Shown here piece by piece: positions 18,029-45,200 of a stretch of DNA of 64,000 bases. Numbering within the stretch: the stretch's first letter is position 1; each line of letters opens with the position of its first letter. The stretch lies in IMG/VR virus record IMGVR_UViG_3300010885_031309. One strand, 5' to 3'. Both the position numbers and the translations under genes were made by a program. Source of the DNA: a virus. Its lineage: Duplodnaviria; Caudoviricetes. The notes under the pieces are model-generated. The model saw nothing but the letters and a program-made list of their open reading frames with translations. It made no database searches and was not told where the DNA came from.

Positions 18029-19414
18029 TTAGACAACAGCATATCGTGGCTGATTGATTGTGTCAAGCATGATACTTTGTGGTGTAAACTCGCCTGCTGC
18101 AAGTATGCTTTTCATAATAGCAGGACTAAATCCACTGACTAGCGCAACGCCACTCTTGTTAAATTCAACCGGAACATTACTGTGACTACTGAGATTCCAG
18201 AATACAATTCGTGGCACGCTGTATCCAGCGGCCTCATACTTGCGTTCAATCATCCGAATTGCGCTATCATTATGTGATGTACACTCGTCAAATTGCATGT
18301 CACTTAAAATCAAAATATACTTTGGCATATCCGATGCTGACACCCGCTGATTGACGGCAACGTTCAACACCGCTTCAAAAGCACCATGCAAATTAGTGCT
18401 CATGCCCCAATCAGCCGACTGTAGTTGGCTGCATTTGCTTAGGATATCTCCTCGCAGGACTTCCAATCGTGTATTCTCACTGAAGGTCAAGAACATATCC
18501 TTGAATGGTCCACGATTCTTGTCTGCACAATATAAACCAAGTGCCACACTGATGTCAATGCACTGTAGATTACGATTTCCACCAACAGGACAACACATGC
18601 TGCCACTAACATCTACCATAGGCAGCACATTAGCATCAGACATATAGTTAGGCAATGCCTCCCATTGTGCTGCGGCAACCTCCGCATCTCCTGCACCAAT
18701 GCTGCGCACAACATCATGTGGGTATACGGCAGCAGCATTTACCTTGGCTTGTCCAGTCTTTAGTGCCGTCTTGTATGCAGTATACGCAACTGAAGCATTG
18801 CGACTAAAAGCCTTTTGATAACGTGCAGCCGCCACGCTTGGCACATGACTAAAGTTGATATTATCCCAATCCTTGGCACACATTTGTGTTTCTACAACCT
18901 TAGTCAAATTGACCAGTGTCTTACGATATTGCTTTGGAGACATACCAAGATGATCGCGCAATTCAATTGCGATATCACCCTTTCTCGGTAGCCACTTAGC
19001 ACACAGAGCTTGATTATCTGCTAGTGCTGCGTCAATCATGTCGTATGCCTTGGTCTTGAATTCCTTAGTTTGGAACACAAGTAGATCATCCCAACGTCCC
19101 CATTCTGGAACATGCGGTAGTACCCGATCCAATGCTTCTGGATGTAGATTTTCCAAATGCAACAGAATGTCACGGAAAATCTGCCGTTCTCCAGCACCAC
19201 CACGAACATCCCGCGCCCATGCAGCAACACGAAGTGCTAGTGTGCGATCAAACTGAAATGCTCGTTCAAACTCTGGGACAATTTGCTTTCCACGACTTGC
19301 GCCGATCTTGTAAAAAAGATCCACCACTGGGTTTGTGGTTGACTCTAGTGCCGCCATACCGTTAGTGGTACGTGCTTCTACTACTGTGCTTTGTACTGCT
19401 TGTGCGAATGTCAT
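18029..19414 (-). CDS. DUF2828 TROVE-like + vWA protein (Ro60-related)
   Basis: RDVRGGAGER, GRWDDL, AKWLPR and MIDAS DVSGSM ... SDMQFD motifs. Confidence 0.85.
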   Translation of the reverse strand: MTFAQAVQSTVVEARTTNGMAALESTTNPVVDLFYKIGASRGKQIVPEFERAFQFDRTLALRVAAWARDVRGGAGERQIFRDILLHLENLHPEALDRVLPHVPEWGRWDDLLVFQTKEFKTKAYDMIDAALADNQALCAKWLPRKGDIAIELRDHLGMSPKQYRKTLVNLTKVVETQMCAKDWDNINFSHVPSVAAARYQKAFSRNASVAYTAYKTALKTGQAKVNAAAVYPHDVVRSIGAGDAEVAAAQWEALPNYMSDANVLPMVDVSGSMCCPVGGNRNLQCIDISVALGLYCADKNRGPFKDMFLTFSENTRLEVLRGDILSKCSQLQSADWGMSTNLHGAFEAVLNVAVNQRVSASDMPKYILILSDMQFDECTSHNDSAIRMIERKYEAAGYSVPRIVFWNLSSHSNVPVEFNKSGVALVSGFSPAIMKSILAAGEFTPQSIMLDTINQPRYAVV

Positions 19415-41114: not shown

Positions 41115-42220
41115 TTACCATATTTCAACACACTGATGGGCTTCTTTTAAGTCGAACTAACCCCGCACCCTAGTGATTTATTCCTCCCTGGTCAGAGGTT
41201 GTTTTCAATGTGTTGAAATATGGTTTCCTACTTTGCGCGACCGTTCGGAACAATTCAAGACGCACCCACTAAGCACAGTGTCCTTGATTCTCAGACCTGG
41301 GACTCGAACCCAGCACACTATCTTAGTTAGTAAGAGTGCAATCTTATTAACTTACGGTGTGAACCTATCTCTGATATTGCTTTTACCATATTTCAACACA
41401 CTCGTTGCATCAGTCGATAAGAGCAGTCGATACAAAAAATGTGTTGAAAAAAAACTCTATGCTAATTGTATAAAGAACTGTGTTGATTTCTCAACATTGA
41501 TGACAGTATATCAGTGTCCTGATTTATTGTCAAGAAACTGTCGGGTAGCTTAATGTGTGATTTCCACTACCCTGTTACTCTGTATCAGTCTAGGCTAATC
41601 ATTGCTGAAAATTCCTAGCATCAACCTGCGTCACACTGTGTTCAGACAGTTATAACTATAACAGGACCGTGATTTATTGTCAACAACTTTCAGTGATTAG
41701 ATCGAAATGCACTCGCATCTGCTTTTTGAGCCGCGTGTTCTCCGCCCTTGATTCCTAGACTAGTACTAGGGGCGTGTGCCCATTTACACTAGCACTTCGA
41801 TCTAATCACTGAATTTTAAAGAACTACGCTGATTTCTCAACGTTAGAGACAGTATATCAAACTTCTGATTTACTGTCAAGTTTCTGTAGTGATCTTGATT
41901 CAACACATGATACTATCTAGATGATTCAGTAGCTGTATCGGCCGATTATCTACTATCTGTCACCCTACGCTCCCTTGGTCCTTTGGGAATGGCTTACCCT
42001 GTGCTGAATCAAGATCACTACAGATTGTTAAAGAACAGCAGTTTACGCTACTGCCAAACGAAGACCTGTGGGTTCTCAGGCTACCCCACACTAGACGTTA
42101 TACTGACAACTGGGATTGTGCTTCCCGAAACATTCTGTAGCGGCGGTGGGAGTTTGTTGTCCCTCGTTTATGCCGACTACACTCAGACCCTGTTTGTTGT
42201 CAGTTCTCTAGCGTATGAAT
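41115..42220 (-). ncRNA. Cluster of long-stem-closed structured RNAs (about 41116-41224, 41221-41380, 41385-41449, 41545-41650, 41689-41813, 41890-42019, 42090-42211)
   Basis: Perfect 8-18 bp closing stems, no credible ORFs, four dedicated promoters. Confidence 0.65.
41590..41618 (-). ncRNA. Minimal CAGC-bulge element E6
   Basis: CTAGG-AATTTTCAGCAATGATTAG-CCTAG. Confidence 0.45.
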
Positions 42221-42247
42221 ACATTATAGACGAGGCTTGATTTATTG

Positions 42248-45200
42248 TCAAATTACGGCAAGACCAAAATGTTGCTTCAGTCCATTAACTGAGGCATTAC
42301 GCATGCCTTTCTCGATTTGGTCACGATAATCACCGTAGCCAAGAGGCGTACTATCAACAACCTCCATGCATTCCCTAACAATCAACTCGGCGAACTTATC
42401 CAATGCTGCTTGACTGATAATAAAGCCTTCCAAATCAGGATGCTTTGGGTCCCAGTATTTGTGCCTATTACATCCAGCCTCAAACGCAAATTCATCAATT
42501 CGTTCGTTCATTCTCATGCTCCTTTATTGCTCTTGTACCTTACGCAGAGTGGCGATCAGTTGGGGCAGCAGATTGATGCCAACGGAGCAGACAAATTCGC
42601 TTTCTGCTTCACCGGGTTCACCAACCCATACCTCTACCAAGTTGCTGCCGATTTGACGAGTTTGAAACGGATTGATTGTGACTTTCATCGTGTGCTCCTT
42701 GCTGTCTACTATGAATACAGTATAGCAAAGATCCGATTTATTGTCAAATGGTCTTTTCCAACCACAGACTACAGAATAGAACGGCAGTGACCAGCAGTGC
42801 TCGCATTTCCCCGTAGTTCTTGTCACTCCTTGCGAATCCTGCCAGACACATTGTTGCTACGAATCCAGCGAAATAAAAATATTCCATCATTCAACTCCTA
42901 GATAATCTTCAATATACTGTTTGACAGAAATAGCACCCGACGCTTCTTTTTCTAGACCATATGTAAGATACCCCACTTGAGCAACCTCACACATTCTCAT
43001 ACATTCCTGAACAATAAGTTCGGCGAACTTTTCCAAATCATAAGGTATTACTGTAGCAGTATCAACGCCATAGTTGTCAGAAGAAACATCAAATTCGATG
43101 TCAGCCTGCTTGGCCAGTTCCCGAATTCGTTCGTTCATCATTCAACCTCAAAACTGTCCAGGATCTGTCTACCGATACCTACTCGGCCCTCGTGTTCCAT
43201 AATACCAGCAACAAGGGCACATTCCCGAACAATCAGTTCGGCAAGTTTATTGGCCCTGCTAGCAATTTCAGGAGCAGCATACCCTGCTTCCTGCATTAAT
43301 TGATTTAATCGTTCGTTCATTTTACAAATCTTCCCCAAATAAACTTTAGACTCAAACCGTCGATCAGGCTCTGTTTGTAAGGTGTTGTAGGTGCCCAAAT
43401 AATATATCCCAAAATAATACCGTCAATCCAAGCAAGAATTAGCAGTAAGGTAATTTCTAATTCAGCCATCATTCAACTCCCGTTCTTCTTACGTTGTTGG
43501 ATATAGTATTCATTCATTCGCTTTTTCCATTCTTCGGGCGTTGGATCACGAAAGGAACCTTGTGGCTTACTTGAACCACGCCCGCTTTTGAAACTGTAAT
43601 ACGCTGTTCTAAAACTCACGATTCAACTCCGAAATGTTGTTCAAATCTTGTTCGCCATTCATTCAACCATGAAATATATTCGGTTGGCCTTTCACTTGGC
43701 TCAAAACAATGATAGCAATCATCCTCGGTTTGCTCCATCATACCGCACATTTCTTTGATAATCAACTCGGCGAACCGTTCGGCACTACGATCACCACCCC
43801 AATATACGGTAGGAGGATTGCCACCACGCATAGGATCATCTTCCGGATATTCTCGCACCATGTGAGCCTGCTGGTATAGTTCTTTTAGACGTTCGTTCAT
43901 TTTTTATTCCCGTTGACAATTTCATTAATTTTTTCAACAAAGTCTGGGTTTCGTTGAATGATTTCATCAATTACATCATCAAGTTCTGCTAGACTTCTTT
44001 TACCTACAGGATTACGTAGGTGATGGATCATTTCCTCCACTGTAAATTCTGGAGCAGATTCTTCATACTTGCTCATTTGTTACTCACTCCATACTTCTTC
44101 TTCAGTCGGTTGATCTCGGCCTTGAGATTACGATTTTCGTAGTCTGCCCAACCAGCGCGATCTTGCATTTCCTTCATCTGCTTTGCGAAGTCTCTATCAC
44201 TCGGTGTTAGGTCTTCTTCTGGCGTGATAATAAACTTACCACTGTCCCAGTCAAAGCCCATCTGGATATTTTTTATCTTAACAGTGGGCAATCCACCAAC
44301 AGTAGAGTACGGCAGTTTGATCTTAACCACCACCTCTGGGTCTTCGTGGTGGCCATCACGGTGAGATAGTTCAACAATACGTTTTAGTTCACTGAATTTC
44401 ATCATTCAACTCCTGTTTAACAATGCCTGTAGAGCATAAACGGCATCGTGTGTAGTAAAGAGTATAACATCATTTTCAATTACTGTATATAGATTAGGTT
44501 GATACTGATGTTGTGAATCATTAAGATCGTTTACCGTCTTTTCAACTTTTAGAACTACCGTTTCAGTTTTCACGAATCAACTCCAAATAATATGATAAAA
44601 CATTGGGCCAAACATTGCCGCAATGATAATAACAAACACAACTGCTGATCTCCAATGCCACGGCATCATTCAACTCCAAACTTTCTTCGAATGGCAGAAG
44701 CAAGAATAATTGCCGTTTCACTAGTACCATCGGGCATCGCATACAAGTCACACAATGCCGCACATTCCTGAACAATCAAATCACCAAACTCGCGCCAATC
44801 AAAGTCACCAATGTACTCACGATCACTAGCATGTTCCTTTTTCAATCCAGCTTGTTTGGCTAGTTCTAGCATTCGTGTGTTCATTTTTTAAACCTTGGAA
44901 TACCGCCTGCTGTGCCTACATATTGAAAGTTGTCTAGCACAGGAACAAGCCCGGCTAGATCACTGGTAGAATGACGGCAAATCTGTTTTGAGTCTGCACC
45001 ATCATGTAACATAAAATACAAGATGGTAGTACCTTCATCAATCTGTGGCTTAAAAATGTATTCCAAATCTTCTAGTATCATTTATCAACTCCAAAAATCT
45101 TATTAATCAGTGTAGCACAGTTAACCGCGGTAGCCTTGGTTTTTCTGGCCATTTCTCCGTTATTGACTAGTTCAGCTTGTTCAGCAACCGAGTAGCAAAT

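What the first reader, a model, noticed from the sequence alone, without database searches (positions are those of the whole stretch)
41115..42220. 1.1-kb island of promoter-driven, stem-closed noncoding RNAs
Seen: at least six elements with long perfect closing stems, for example TTCAGTGATTAGATCGAA (18 bp, 41689-41813), GTGATCTTGATTCA (14 bp, 41890-42019) and CTGACAAC (42090-42211). One element (41221-41380) contains a perfect T arm (CTGGG-TTCGAGT-CCCAG) mid-molecule and ends in ACCA. Four sigma70 promoters, two boxA leaders and no credible ORF are present. Inference: a battery of phage sRNAs (decoys or sponges for host defence proteins, antitoxin mimics, or Y-like RNAs).
Basis: partly seen in the sequence, partly recalled or inferred. 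Interest (0 to 1): 0.62.

Follow-up and report, generated by a model that had tools for sequence, protein, structure and literature searches.

The report
Phage small-RNA genes with rRNA-style leaders
A giant uncultured lake phage starts its tRNA gene cluster with a 1.2-kb row of strong promoters and ribosomal-RNA-type leader signals that drive about seven small folded RNAs closed by long stems. Several of these RNAs belong to conserved, uncatalogued phage RNA families whose job is unknown.

Summary
Four consensus early promoters sit within 750 bases. Three leaders carry a short hairpin plus a boxA match (12/13 to E. coli rrn boxA). Seven folded elements (E1-E7) follow, with closing stems of up to 25 bp.

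E1, E3 and E4 recur in related lake-phage contigs. E3 is a family of 22 distinct sequences; its closing stem and one arm covary strongly, and two arms never change. Rfam matches nothing in the island.

The promoter-hairpin-boxA cassette recurs in 55 phage contexts and in 0 of 115 bacterial contexts. The 5' strand of each long stem starts at or right after boxA, as in the leader-trailer helices of rRNA operons.

Best reading: small rRNA-operon-like units at the head of the phage tRNA operon that make stable small RNAs, analogous to T4 rnaC/rnaD. Use of host Nus factors and trimming by RNase III are inferred, not shown.

What the RNAs do is open.

Earlier notes of this scan describe similar boxA-led phage RNA operons on other DNA; these particular RNA families were not among them.

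The parts
42223..42251 (-). Promoter P1 (TTGACA-17-TATAAT, 12/12 match). The predicted start falls at about 42215, the first base of the E1 outer stem.
   Evidence: sequence
42086..42216 (-). E1: a 131-nt RNA with two stacked closing stems (9 + 9 bp) and a three-way junction carrying two GGGA...UCCC hairpins.
   Evidence: fold z = -3.1; conserved in L002 and L003 with 7 compensatory pairs; found in only these three genomes
42064..42081 (-). Hairpin followed by UCUUCGUUUGG after E1: a weak terminator-like site.
   Evidence: conserved in L002 and L003
42024..42056 (-). Leader 1: hairpin 42056-42036, then boxA GTTCTTTAACAAT (42036-42024). It runs straight into CTGTAGTG, the start of the 5' strand of the E2 stem.
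   Evidence: The E. coli rrn boxA-spacer is ugcucuuuaacaauuua (PMC2724277). The junction is invariant in four phages while the core behind it differs.
41883..42024 (-). E2: a 142-nt RNA with a 25-bp closing stem and a three-way junction core.
   Evidence: fold z = -7.3; core 88% identical in L016, which has a different, compensating outer stem
41851..41879 (-). Promoter P2 (11/12 match, TG-extended -10).
41814..41843 (-). Leader 2: a boxB-like 5-bp hairpin with a GAAA loop (41843-41826), then boxA GTTCTTTAAAA (41824-41814).
   Evidence: The cassette occurs in 55 distinct promoter-linked phage contexts, with hairpin flanks paired in 55/55 and 50/55, and in 0 of 115 bacterial contexts.
41689..41813 (-). 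E3: a 125-nt RNA with a 22-bp closing stem around a four-way junction. The spacers between its arms (2, 1, 4, 0 nt) match those of a tRNA cloverleaf.
   Evidence: fold z = -6.8; family of 22 distinct sequences; covariation 0.396 against 0.155 in shuffles, 0/500 shuffles as high; covariance model R1 scores 125.9 bits, single copy in the window
41655..41683 (-). Promoter P3 (11/12 match). The predicted start falls at about 41648-41650, the first base of the E4 closing stem.
   Evidence: the promoter is kept in front of E4 in L410 and L411
41536..41650 (-). E4: a 115-nt RNA with a 6-bp closing stem, a 7-bp hairpin, an arm with a variable tip, and a possible GUGUGA/UCACAC pseudoknot.
   Evidence: z = -2.0; six sequences, with 8 pairs showing compensatory changes. 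The pseudoknot is my own inference from invariant sequence.
41505..41533 (-). Promoter P4 (11/12 match). P4 plus its leader is a 79%-identical duplicate of P2 plus its leader.
   Evidence: repeat D2
41466..41496 (-). Leader 3: GAAA hairpin (41496-41481), then the degenerate boxA GTTCTTTATACAA (41478-41466).
   Evidence: sequence
41391..41449 (-). E5: a long hairpin (13 + 8 bp). Its 3' strand is the repeated motif GTGTGTTGAAATATGGT.
   Evidence: z = -3.0
41225..41384 (-). E6: a tRNA-like domain (41376-41288) with a perfect T arm, a long variable arm and a 6-nt anticodon loop UUGCAC, plus a 62-nt 3' extension.
   Evidence: ARAGORN at a relaxed threshold only; not called as tRNA by Rfam. A 152-nt contig in a lake metatranscriptome covers exactly 41226-41374 at 100% identity; this is weak evidence. 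No homologue among the fetched loci.
41117..41224 (-). E7: a 108-nt RNA with a 20-bp closing stem of the 'constant' type (ACCATATTTCAACACA / TGTGTTGAAATATGGT). It ends 9 nt upstream of the next tRNA-like gene.
   Evidence: fold z = -5.8; 94% identical copy in front of tRNA-Lys in L003; the same stem type closes at least five other cores in L003
41022..41107 (-). A Tyr(GTA)-type tRNA-like gene directly downstream. It lies outside the finding and is the first tRNA-type product of the operon.
   Evidence: Rfam tRNA-Sec model 24.5 bits, below threshold; ARAGORN at a relaxed threshold only; present in contigs of two metatranscriptomes
18029..19414 (-). Context: gene for a 461-aa DUF2828/DUF7788 protein with a Ro60/TROVE fold. 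It is a candidate protein partner for stem-closed RNAs.
   Evidence: Pfam; model pLDDT 77.5; Foldseek full-length matches to 9kop, 9l5y (phage phiLo Ro60), 2nvo and 1yvr, E = 1.9e-8 to 7e-6

Best explanation
The island is the promoter-rich head of the phage's tRNA and stable-RNA operon on the minus strand. It is built from small units that copy the logic of a bacterial rRNA operon.

Shown:
- Four consensus early sigma70-type promoters lie in tandem.
- Three leaders consist of a short hairpin followed by a boxA match.
- The 5' strand of a 20-25 bp helix starts at or immediately after boxA. Its 3' strand follows an 80-100 nt folded core. This is the arrangement of the leader-trailer helices that bracket 16S and 23S rRNA.
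- The cores are conserved, structured RNAs.

Inferred:
- Host NusB/NusE (with NusA, NusG and SuhB) load on boxA. This would make RNA polymerase resistant to Rho over the roughly 7 kb of untranslated RNA. It would also hold the 5' strand near the RNA exit channel so that the long closing helix forms once the 3' strand emerges.
- RNase III cuts the near-perfect duplexes, and RNase P cuts at the tRNA-like 5' ends. Together they would release small stable RNAs (E2, E3, E7, and E6 between two helices).
- E1 and E4 would start directly at their closing stems from their own promoters.

The products are functional counterparts of the stable RNAs rnaC and rnaD in the T4 tRNA cluster. Their most likely role is as tRNA-shaped or Y-RNA-like ligands of RNA-handling proteins, possibly the phage's own Ro60-fold protein. 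That last step is the least certain.
For: Promoters.

boxA: 12/13 identical to the E. coli rrn boxA, and 13/13 in the relative L003 (PMC2724277).

The promoter + GAAA hairpin + boxA cassette is specific to phages. Of 85 distinct phage contexts, 55 have a promoter, and in those the hairpin flanks pair in 55/55 and 50/55. Of 115 bacterial contexts, none has a promoter and pairing is at chance level.

The helix begins at boxA. The junction AACAATCTGTAGTG is invariant in four phages, while the enclosed core is swapped.

The rRNA precedent is published: boxC lies in the 5' strand of the leader-trailer helix, and a boxA-anchored looping model explains how that helix forms (PMC10250234). Nus factors also act in antitermination and RNA maturation (PMC4807359).

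The RNAs are real:
- Fold z-scores of -5.8 to -7.3.
- E3: 94% of cells paired, 20 pairs with double changes, 0/500 shuffles as good.
- E1, E4 and E2 show compensatory changes.
- E3 is about 97% identical between phages whose flanking hydrolase protein is only about 60% identical.

E6 appears as a discrete 152-nt contig in a lake metatranscriptome.

T4 precedent: rnaC and rnaD are annotated in its tRNA cluster, and rnaC has a T arm.
Against: No direct evidence of transcription, RNA ends or processing exists. The one RNA-library contig has low depth (5.8) and could come from contaminating DNA.

The host is unknown, so its own boxA cannot be compared. boxA is short, and the third copy is degenerate.

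The boxA-to-helix spacing here is 0-3 nt, against 18-19 nt between boxA and boxC in Enterobacteriaceae.

E1 and E4 have no boxA leader. In some relatives E3 has only a 7-bp stem and sits between tRNAs (L168), so the long helix is not essential to the family.

Cleavage by RNase III is inferred only from duplex length. The trans function is unknown.
Confidence: 0.6

Rival explanations
1. Y-RNA-like partners of the phage Ro60-fold protein. The stem-closed RNAs would bind the DUF2828/DUF7788 ring protein through their 5'-3' stems. As in Ro60-Y RNA-PNPase complexes, they would tether or gate it, for example to blunt host PNPase or to handle damaged tRNA.
For: The window encodes a full-length Ro60/TROVE-fold protein. 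Known phage Ro60 binds phage-encoded Y-like RNAs and host PNPase (PMC12135203). YrlA-type Y RNAs were reported in 22 phages and contain tRNA-like modules (PMC4201824).

The island RNAs are 108-142 nt, closed by long 5'-3' stems, and partly tRNA-shaped. The E3 5' strand carries AUCGAAG, one base away from the GNCGAAN0-1G motif. No canonical Y RNA exists anywhere in the window, and no non-coding gap lies beside the Ro-like gene. The island therefore holds the only candidates in view.
Against: There is no Rfam Y_RNA or YrlA hit even at E <= 10. The CGAA-like motif is present only in one sublineage of the E3 family and sits inside a covarying helix. The stems are perfect duplexes without the bulge or internal loop typical of Ro sites.

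The island is 22 kb from the Ro-like gene here, and 20-26 kb away in two relatives. In other phages the gene sits in dense coding DNA with no adjacent RNA genes. RNA binding by DUF2828 proteins has never been tested.
Confidence: 0.18
2. Purely cis-acting operon furniture. The stems and cores would serve only as co-transcriptional folding, insulation or RNase entry modules between promoters and tRNAs, and would be degraded after processing, with no role in trans.
For: The elements always lie in tRNA regions in the same orientation as the tRNAs, often 9-10 nt upstream of a tRNA 5' end. A 'constant' stem encloses many unrelated cores, as expected for a processing signal. rRNA leader-trailer helices act in cis.
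Against: The unpaired and junction sequences of E3 and E4 are invariant across phages whose neighbouring protein is only about 60% identical. Meanwhile the peripheral arms vary in length and sequence, which is the pattern of RNAs that contact a partner. E1 and E4 have their own promoters, and E1 has its own terminator-like hairpin. The T4 rnaC and rnaD RNAs are stable species.
Confidence: 0.17
3. Decoys or sponges for host defence or tRNA-targeting proteins. tRNA-shaped RNAs would soak up anticodon nucleases or RNA sensors, or abundant boxA transcripts would titrate the host's Nus factors away from rRNA operons.
For: The arm spacing of E3 is tRNA-like, and E6 is tRNA-like with a defective anticodon loop. 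Four consensus early promoters imply very high early expression. High-level nut/boxA RNA is known to titrate Nus factors and lower rRNA expression (PMC4807359). Jumbo phages carry many systems that counter attacks on tRNA (PMC7824862).
Against: No target is identified. The host is unknown. No conserved complementarity to other sequence in the window was found: the longest antisense matches do not clearly exceed those of shuffled sequences (14 nt for E3 against 13; all others within the shuffle range), and the one 14-nt match is not conserved.
Confidence: 0.12
4. DNA-level elements: MITE-like inverted-repeat insertions, recombination cassettes, or a replication origin fired by the promoter cluster.
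For: The size (110-140 bp with 18-25 bp terminal inverted repeats) is MITE-like. Cores are exchanged at conserved boundaries between phages. T4-type phages can prime replication from transcripts (my own knowledge).
Against: There are no target-site duplications. Each element is single-copy in the window, and its relatives were found only in tRNA regions of the fetched contigs. The stems differ in sequence and keep pairing through G-U pairs and compensatory changes, which matters only in RNA. The promoters face into the elements. GC skew does not switch sign at the island.
Confidence: 0.04

Closest known systems
Phage T4 stable RNAs rnaC (species 1, 139 nt) and rnaD (species 2, 119 nt) in the T4 tRNA gene cluster
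   Same: They are small, structured, non-coding RNAs of unknown function inside the tRNA cluster of a T4-type phage, on the same strand as the tRNAs. rnaC contains a T arm, as E6 does.
   Different: There is no sequence similarity (nhmmer finds no hit at E <= 10). The T4 RNAs are annotated without promoters of their own, boxA leaders or 20-25 bp closing helices. Here there are at least five different families in a row.
Bacterial rRNA operon leader: boxB-boxA-boxC with the leader-trailer helix, read by the rrn antitermination complex (NusA/B/E/G, SuhB)
   Same: The order of parts is the same: strong promoter, hairpin, boxA (12-13 of 13 identical to E. coli), then the 5' strand of a long helix whose 3' strand follows the enclosed structured RNA. 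Helices of 20-25 bp are long enough for RNase III.
   Different: The enclosed RNA is 80-100 nt, not 1.5-2.9 kb. The helix starts 0-3 nt after boxA rather than 18-19 nt. The GAAA hairpin is specific to phages, being absent from promoter contexts in 115 distinct bacterial matches. Binding of Nus factors is untested.
Y RNAs / YrlA with Ro60 (Rsr), including Yrl1 and Yrl2 of Thermus phage phiLo
   Same: The RNAs are 80-130 nt, closed by a long 5'-3' stem, with tRNA-like modules, and are encoded by a phage that also encodes a Ro60-fold protein.
   Different: The Rfam models do not match. The CGAA/GNCGAA motif is not conserved. The stems lack a bulge. The genes are 22 kb apart rather than within 4 kb. 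The protein is a divergent DUF2828/DUF7788 form.
Lambda nut sites (boxA + boxB)
   Same: Both combine boxA with a small hairpin carrying a GNRA-type loop in a phage early transcript.
   Different: The order here is hairpin then boxA, as in rrn and not as in nut. No N-like gene was identified. The downstream product is structured RNA, not mRNA.

Membership tests
Any Rfam 15 family | Covariance-model match at or near the gathering score | tested here: not met
   No hit inside 41115-42220 at the gathering threshold, nor at E <= 10 on the 2.4-kb region. The whole window at E <= 1 gives only tRNAs, group I introns and weak chance hits outside the island.
rrn-type antitermination leader | boxA sequence (E. 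coli rrn: UGCUCUUUAACAA) | tested here: met
   GTTCTTTAACAAT at 42036-42024 matches 12/13. L003 has GCTCTTTAACAAT, 13/13 (PMC2724277). The second copy matches about 10/13, and the third is degenerate.
rrn-type antitermination leader | Hairpin (boxB) upstream of boxA, shortly after a strong promoter | tested here: met
   The hairpin flanks covary in 55 promoter-linked phage contexts.
rrn-type antitermination leader | boxA followed by the 5' strand of a long leader-trailer helix that brackets the product RNA | tested here: met
   The E2 and E3 stems begin 0-1 nt after boxA. The helices covary. The spacing differs from the 18-19 nt seen in Enterobacteriaceae.
rrn-type antitermination leader | NusB/NusE binding and Nus-dependent antitermination or maturation | not testable with these tools
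   Needs biochemistry or genetics. The host is unknown.
Y RNA / YrlA | 80-130 nt with a long stem formed by the 5' and 3' ends | tested here: met
   E2, E3 and E7 are 142, 125 and 108 nt, with 25-, 22- and 20-bp stems.
Y RNA / YrlA | Ro60-binding motif GNCGAAN0-1G / CGAA in the 5' strand (PMC4201824; PMC12135203) | tested here: inconclusive
   E3 has AUCGAAG, one mismatch away. Only 6 of the 22 family members keep CGAA, and the position covaries as an ordinary base pair. E1, E2, E4 and E7 lack the motif.
Y RNA / YrlA | tRNA-like D and T arms (YrlA) | tested here: not met
   E3 has tRNA-like arm spacing but no T-loop or D-loop sequence. Only E6 has a T arm. The Rfam YrlA model gives no hit.
Y RNA / YrlA | Encoded within about 4 kb of the Ro60 gene on the same strand | tested here: not met
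   Same strand, but 22 kb apart here. The distance is 20-26 kb in two relatives.
tRNA (for E6, 41376-41288) | Canonical cloverleaf with a 7-nt anticodon loop, detected by standard tools | tested here: not met
   Not called by ARAGORN at default settings or by the Rfam tRNA model. At a relaxed threshold it shows a 6-nt anticodon loop, an A.G mismatch in the acceptor stem and a weak D stem.
T4 rnaC / rnaD | Sequence homology to the T4 RNAs | tested here: not met
   nhmmer of E1-E7 against the T4 tRNA region (L239) gives no hit at E <= 10. The resemblance is only in position, size and kind.
MITE-like repeat | Many dispersed copies with target-site duplications | tested here: not met
   Single copies, relatives found only in tRNA regions of the fetched contigs, and no flanking direct repeats.

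The most novel reading that the evidence does not exclude
A lineage of giant lake phages has copied the whole design of the rRNA operon (boxA-loaded, Nus-modified RNA polymerase acting as an RNA chaperone, leader-trailer helix, RNase III release) to manufacture a swappable set of small RNAs. These RNAs would be the missing RNA partners of the very widespread phage Ro60-fold (DUF2828/DUF7788) protein. That would make this a new, phage-specific Ro-Y-type ribonucleoprotein system whose RNAs share a stem but carry exchangeable cores.
Probability: 0.15. Interest if true: 0.85.

Novelty: new variant of a known kind. Interest (0 to 1): 0.6.

Why it matters
The function of phage stable RNAs in tRNA clusters, such as T4 rnaC and rnaD, is still not established as far as I know. 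This island offers at least three conserved, covariation-supported RNA families (E1, E3, E4) and several lineage-specific ones. Each has defined promoters and boundaries, so they can be synthesised and tested directly.

If the leaders really recruit the host Nus/SuhB complex, this would show a phage using the cell's rRNA transcription-and-folding machinery for small RNAs. That would also supply a compact natural model of leader-trailer helix formation.

The Ro60-fold assignment of the DUF2828/DUF7788 family, which has at least 8000 homologues in the search, also raises a testable question: which RNAs does it bind?

Tried and rejected
- Nucleotide and protein BLAST of the island and of a neighbouring 972-aa protein against GenBank phages found no match. 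No whole genome is held for this window.
- The neighbouring 89-aa protein gave no related loci.
- Scanning bacterial genomes for the leader pattern, in the hope of finding a host rRNA leader, returned only chance matches. None of the 115 distinct contexts had a promoter and none lay near a 16S gene.
- The 14-mer scan for E3 and the 16-mer scan for E1 returned mostly chance hits and needed BLAST or nhmmer filtering.
- The E3 covariance model found no second copy in the window, so E1, E2, E4 and E7 are not distant E3 relatives.
- An antisense search of E1-E7 against the window found one 14-nt match of E3 inside the Ro-like mRNA (19230-19243). It is not conserved in relatives, so I treat it as chance.
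- A sequence search of the Ro-like protein against PDB found nothing. Only the fold comparison did.
- Neighbourhoods of the Ro-like gene in two other phages, and in this window, show no adjacent RNA genes.
- GC skew shows no origin-like switch at the island. A literature search for T4 oriE gave nothing usable.
- In the three RNA libraries laid on the island, most of it had no contig cover. This says nothing either way.
- A literature search on DUF2828 was uninformative.
Full report
**Orientation and setting**

The window comes from an uncultured freshwater giant T4-related phage, according to earlier notes on the same genome. The DNA runs that hold this stretch are labelled freshwater or lake metagenomes. 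Almost all ORFs and all 18 tRNA calls are on the minus strand.

The flagged 41115-42220 lies inside the tRNA region, which spans about 47.2 to 34.9 kb. It sits directly upstream, in the direction of transcription, of a Tyr-type tRNA-like gene (41107-41022) and the tRNA genes from 40380 downward. The window's contig is not in IMG/VR or GenBank phages.

**Checking the observation**

The consensus scan finds four promoters matching 11-12 of 12 positions, with -35 boxes at 42251, 41879, 41683 and 41533. They belong to an extended promoter class, TTGACARTAAATC, with 15 copies in the window against 0.41 expected, all on the minus strand.

I divided the island into seven folded elements:

| Element | Coordinates | Main feature | Fold z-score |
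|---|---|---|---|
| E1 | 42216-42086 | two stacked 9-bp closing stems | -3.1 |
| E2 | 42024-41883 | 25-bp stem | -7.3 |
| E3 | 41813-41689 | 22-bp stem | -6.8 |
| E4 | 41650-41536 | 6-bp stem | -2.0 |
| E5 | 41449-41391 | long hairpin | -3.0 |
| E6 | 41384-41225 | T arm | -1.5 |
| E7 | 41224-41117 | 20-bp stem | -5.8 |

The inverted repeats behind these stems are listed. The ORFs in the island are short or on the wrong strand, have no Pfam match, and are broken by insertions and deletions in relatives.

**Leaders**

After P2 and P4 the transcript begins with a 5-bp hairpin capped by a GAAA loop (…UGA-GAAA-UCA…). This is followed by GUUCUUUAAAA (P2) or GUUCUUUAUACAA (P4). After E1 a different hairpin precedes GUUCUUUAACAAU.

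The E. coli rrn boxA-spacer is ugcucuuuaacaauuua (PMC2724277, Table 1). The best phage copy therefore matches 12 of 13 positions, and the orthologous copy in relative L003 matches 13 of 13.

I scanned IMG/VR for TGAGAAATCA-N3-6-TTCTTTAA and obtained 85 distinct contexts:
- 55 have a sigma70-type promoter within 70 nt upstream. In these, the two positions flanking the 10-mer pair in 55/55 and 50/55 cases, with U-A, C-G and G-C alternatives.
- In the 30 without a promoter, pairing is at chance level.
- The downstream sequence is usually a tRNA or a stem-closed hairpin.

The same pattern in one genome per prokaryotic species gave 115 distinct contexts. None had a promoter, none was near a 16S gene, and pairing was at chance level. 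The cassette is therefore a conserved device of a phage lineage, not a copied piece of a host rRNA leader. Its boxA part does match the rRNA signal.

**The helix starts at boxA**

The 5' strands of the E2 and E3 closing stems begin 0-1 nt after boxA. In four phages the sequence …GYTCTTTAACAATCTGTAGTG is invariant. What follows differs: the E2 core here, another stem-closed core in L003, and a tRNA-like RNA in L002 and L072.

In Enterobacteriaceae, boxC (UCUGUGUGGG) lies in the 5' strand of the 25-40 bp leader-trailer helix that brackets 16S rRNA. The current model is that boxA bound by NusB keeps this strand near the RNA exit channel until the trailer emerges (PMC10250234). Nus factors and SuhB act there in antitermination and in RNA maturation (PMC4807359).

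The phage units have the same order of parts in miniature. That they use the same host factors, and that RNase III cuts the 20-25 bp near-perfect duplexes, is inference from this architecture.

**Are the RNAs real and conserved?**

Three related IMG/VR contigs were found through the cell-wall hydrolase gene that lies upstream of the tRNA region (58-61% amino-acid identity). Two of them (L002, L003) extend far enough into the tRNA region, and they carry:
- E1 (80-92% nucleotide identity);
- P2-leader-E3 (96-98%);
- P3-E4-P4-leader (81-84%).

L003 also carries E7 (94%).

*E3.* Pattern scans of IMG/VR and JGI metagenomes raised the family to 22 distinct sequences. On that alignment:
- 94% of cells form standard pairs, against 80.5% in shuffles.
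- 20 of 40 pairs show changes on both sides.
- The covariation score is 0.396 against 0.155 in shuffles, with 0 of 500 shuffles reaching it.
- Sliding the partner columns collapses pairing to 27-51%.

The closing stem P1 (16 of 22 pairs with double changes) and arm P3 (4 of 5) covary. P3 is replaced wholesale in some members. Arms P2 (GUGU-AAAUGN-GCAC) and P4 (ACACGCGGCUCNAAANGCAGAUGCGAGU) are invariant.

The spacers between the four helices are 2, 1, 4 and 0 nt, as in a tRNA cloverleaf, but no T-loop or D-loop sequence is present. In some phages E3 has only a 7-bp closing stem and sits between two tRNAs (L168). A covariance model (R1) finds one copy in the window at 125.9 bits and nothing else.

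*E4.* Six sequences were found. The 7-bp hairpin covaries and one arm has a variable tip. E4's own promoter is kept in L410 and L411.

*E1.* It occurs in three genomes, with 7 compensatory pairs.

*E2.* Its core recurs once (L016, 88% identity) inside a different, compensating stem.

*E6.* No relative was found among the fetched loci.

*Catalogue and repeat checks.* Rfam has no match for any element. T4 rnaC and rnaD show no similarity.

**A shared stem with exchangeable cores**

E5 and E7 use the strands ACCAUAUUUCAACACA / UGUGUUGAAAUAUGGU. In L003, stems of this type close at least five further, unrelated cores of 38-120 nt.

Across the fetched phage loci, three variants of this stem (…AUAUUUCARCAC…, …AUAUUGAAGCWC…, …AUAUAUAARCNC…) enclose about 30 distinct cores. 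These include E3 and E2 family members in other phages (the count is approximate because both strands match). Such hairpins typically end 9-10 nt before a tRNA 5' end.

This points to a common processing or binding signal. Together with the invariant boxA junction, it also marks the boundaries at which cores are swapped.

**E6**

ARAGORN at a relaxed threshold draws 41376-41288 as a class-II-like tRNA look-alike. It has a perfect T arm, a long variable arm, a 7-bp acceptor stem with one A.G mismatch, and a 6-nt anticodon loop UUGCAC. Standard settings and Rfam do not call it.

A 62-nt extension follows, up to the E7 stem.

One lake metatranscriptome (X18) contains a 152-nt contig that covers 41226-41374 at 100% identity. 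That is exactly the piece between the E5 and E7 hairpins, at depth 5.8. This fits a discrete stable RNA, but it is a single low-depth contig from a library that may contain DNA.

**The Ro60-fold protein**

The 461-aa product of 18029-19414 (minus strand) matches Pfam DUF2828 and DUF7788. The homology search returned at least 8000 homologues, the best of them from ENA, JGI, NCBI and Logan assemblies, some on contigs of over 100 kb.

Its AlphaFold model (pLDDT 77.5) is an all-helical N-terminal part plus a vWA domain. It matches, over its full length, a TROVE domain (9kop, E = 1.9e-8, TM 0.59), Ro60 of Thermus phage phiLo (9l5y), Deinococcus Rsr (2nvo) and Xenopus Ro60 (1yvr).

Known Ro60 proteins bind Y RNAs. 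These are 80-130 nt with a long 5'-3' stem carrying a GNCGAAN0-1G-type motif, often with tRNA-like domains, and usually lie within 4 kb of the gene (PMC4201824). The phiLo protein binds two phage Y-like RNAs through a CGAA motif and recruits host PNPase (PMC12135203).

For the Y-RNA reading here:
- The RNAs have the right size and are closed by long stems.
- The E3 5' strand reads AUCGAAG.
- There is no canonical Y RNA in the window and no RNA gene beside the protein gene.

Against it:
- The motif is kept in only 6 of 22 E3 relatives and behaves as an ordinary base pair.
- The stems have no bulge.
- The genes are 20-26 kb apart in all three genomes.
- In other phages the gene lies in dense coding DNA.

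I rate this function at about 0.18.

**Verdict**

The best-supported account covers architecture and biogenesis. The island is a set of rRNA-operon-like mini-units at the head of the phage tRNA operon that produces several stable, structured small RNAs. These are new families of the kind first seen as T4 rnaC and rnaD. Confidence in this account is 0.6.

The steps that remain inferred are Nus loading, RNase III trimming, and any action in trans. Among trans functions, a Y-RNA-like partnership with the Ro60-fold protein and tRNA-mimic decoys are both open. A purely cis processing role is the sober alternative.

Earlier notes of this scan describe comparable boxA-led phage RNA operons and a phage Y-RNA array on other DNA. 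No look-alike of these particular sequences had been noted.

Noticed in passing
window:18029-19414 (-): The DUF2828/DUF7788 protein folds as a full-length Ro60/TROVE ring plus vWA domain. Top PDB matches are 9kop, phage phiLo Ro60 (9l5y), Rsr (2nvo) and Xenopus Ro60. The family has at least 8000 homologues in the protein search and is listed in Pfam only as domains of unknown function.
   Followed up: partly
L003:14130-19010 (IMG/VR 3300042914_003037): At least eight stem-closed RNAs lie in a row in a relative's tRNA region. Five or more share the constant stem YYATATTTCARCAC / GTGTTGAAATATRR around unrelated cores of 38-120 nt.
   Followed up: partly
window:41022-41107 (-): A Tyr(GTA)-type tRNA-like gene is missed by default ARAGORN and scores below threshold in Rfam (tRNA-Sec model, 24.5 bits). 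The same RNA, with different flanks, occurs in contigs of two metatranscriptomes (X19, X20).
   Followed up: partly
window:40397-40675 (+): An HNH endonuclease ORF (Pfam HNH_5, E = 7e-14) lies on the opposite strand, inside the tRNA operon, between the Tyr-like RNA and tRNA-Met.
   Followed up: no
window:42248-43398 (-): Three small paralogous proteins (84-89 aa) share the motif FAELIVRECM. They lie just upstream of the island and have no Pfam match. A further consensus early promoter sits at 42747-42719.
   Followed up: no
window:19230-19243 (-): A 14-nt perfect antisense match exists between the E3 junction (CGAAGUGCUAGUGU) and the mRNA of the Ro60-fold protein. It is not conserved in the two related contigs, so it is probably chance.
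   Followed up: yes
window:39978-40396 (-): ARAGORN's permuted 'tmRNA*' call overlaps two ordinary tRNA genes (Cys and Met) and is probably a false positive.
   Followed up: no
L417:9469-10554; L419:15465-16526: In other phages an AAA+ (nSTAND3/AAA) gene lies near the Ro60-fold gene: directly downstream in L417 and L418, about 6 kb downstream in L419 and L420. This recalls vWA-MoxR pairs.
   Followed up: no
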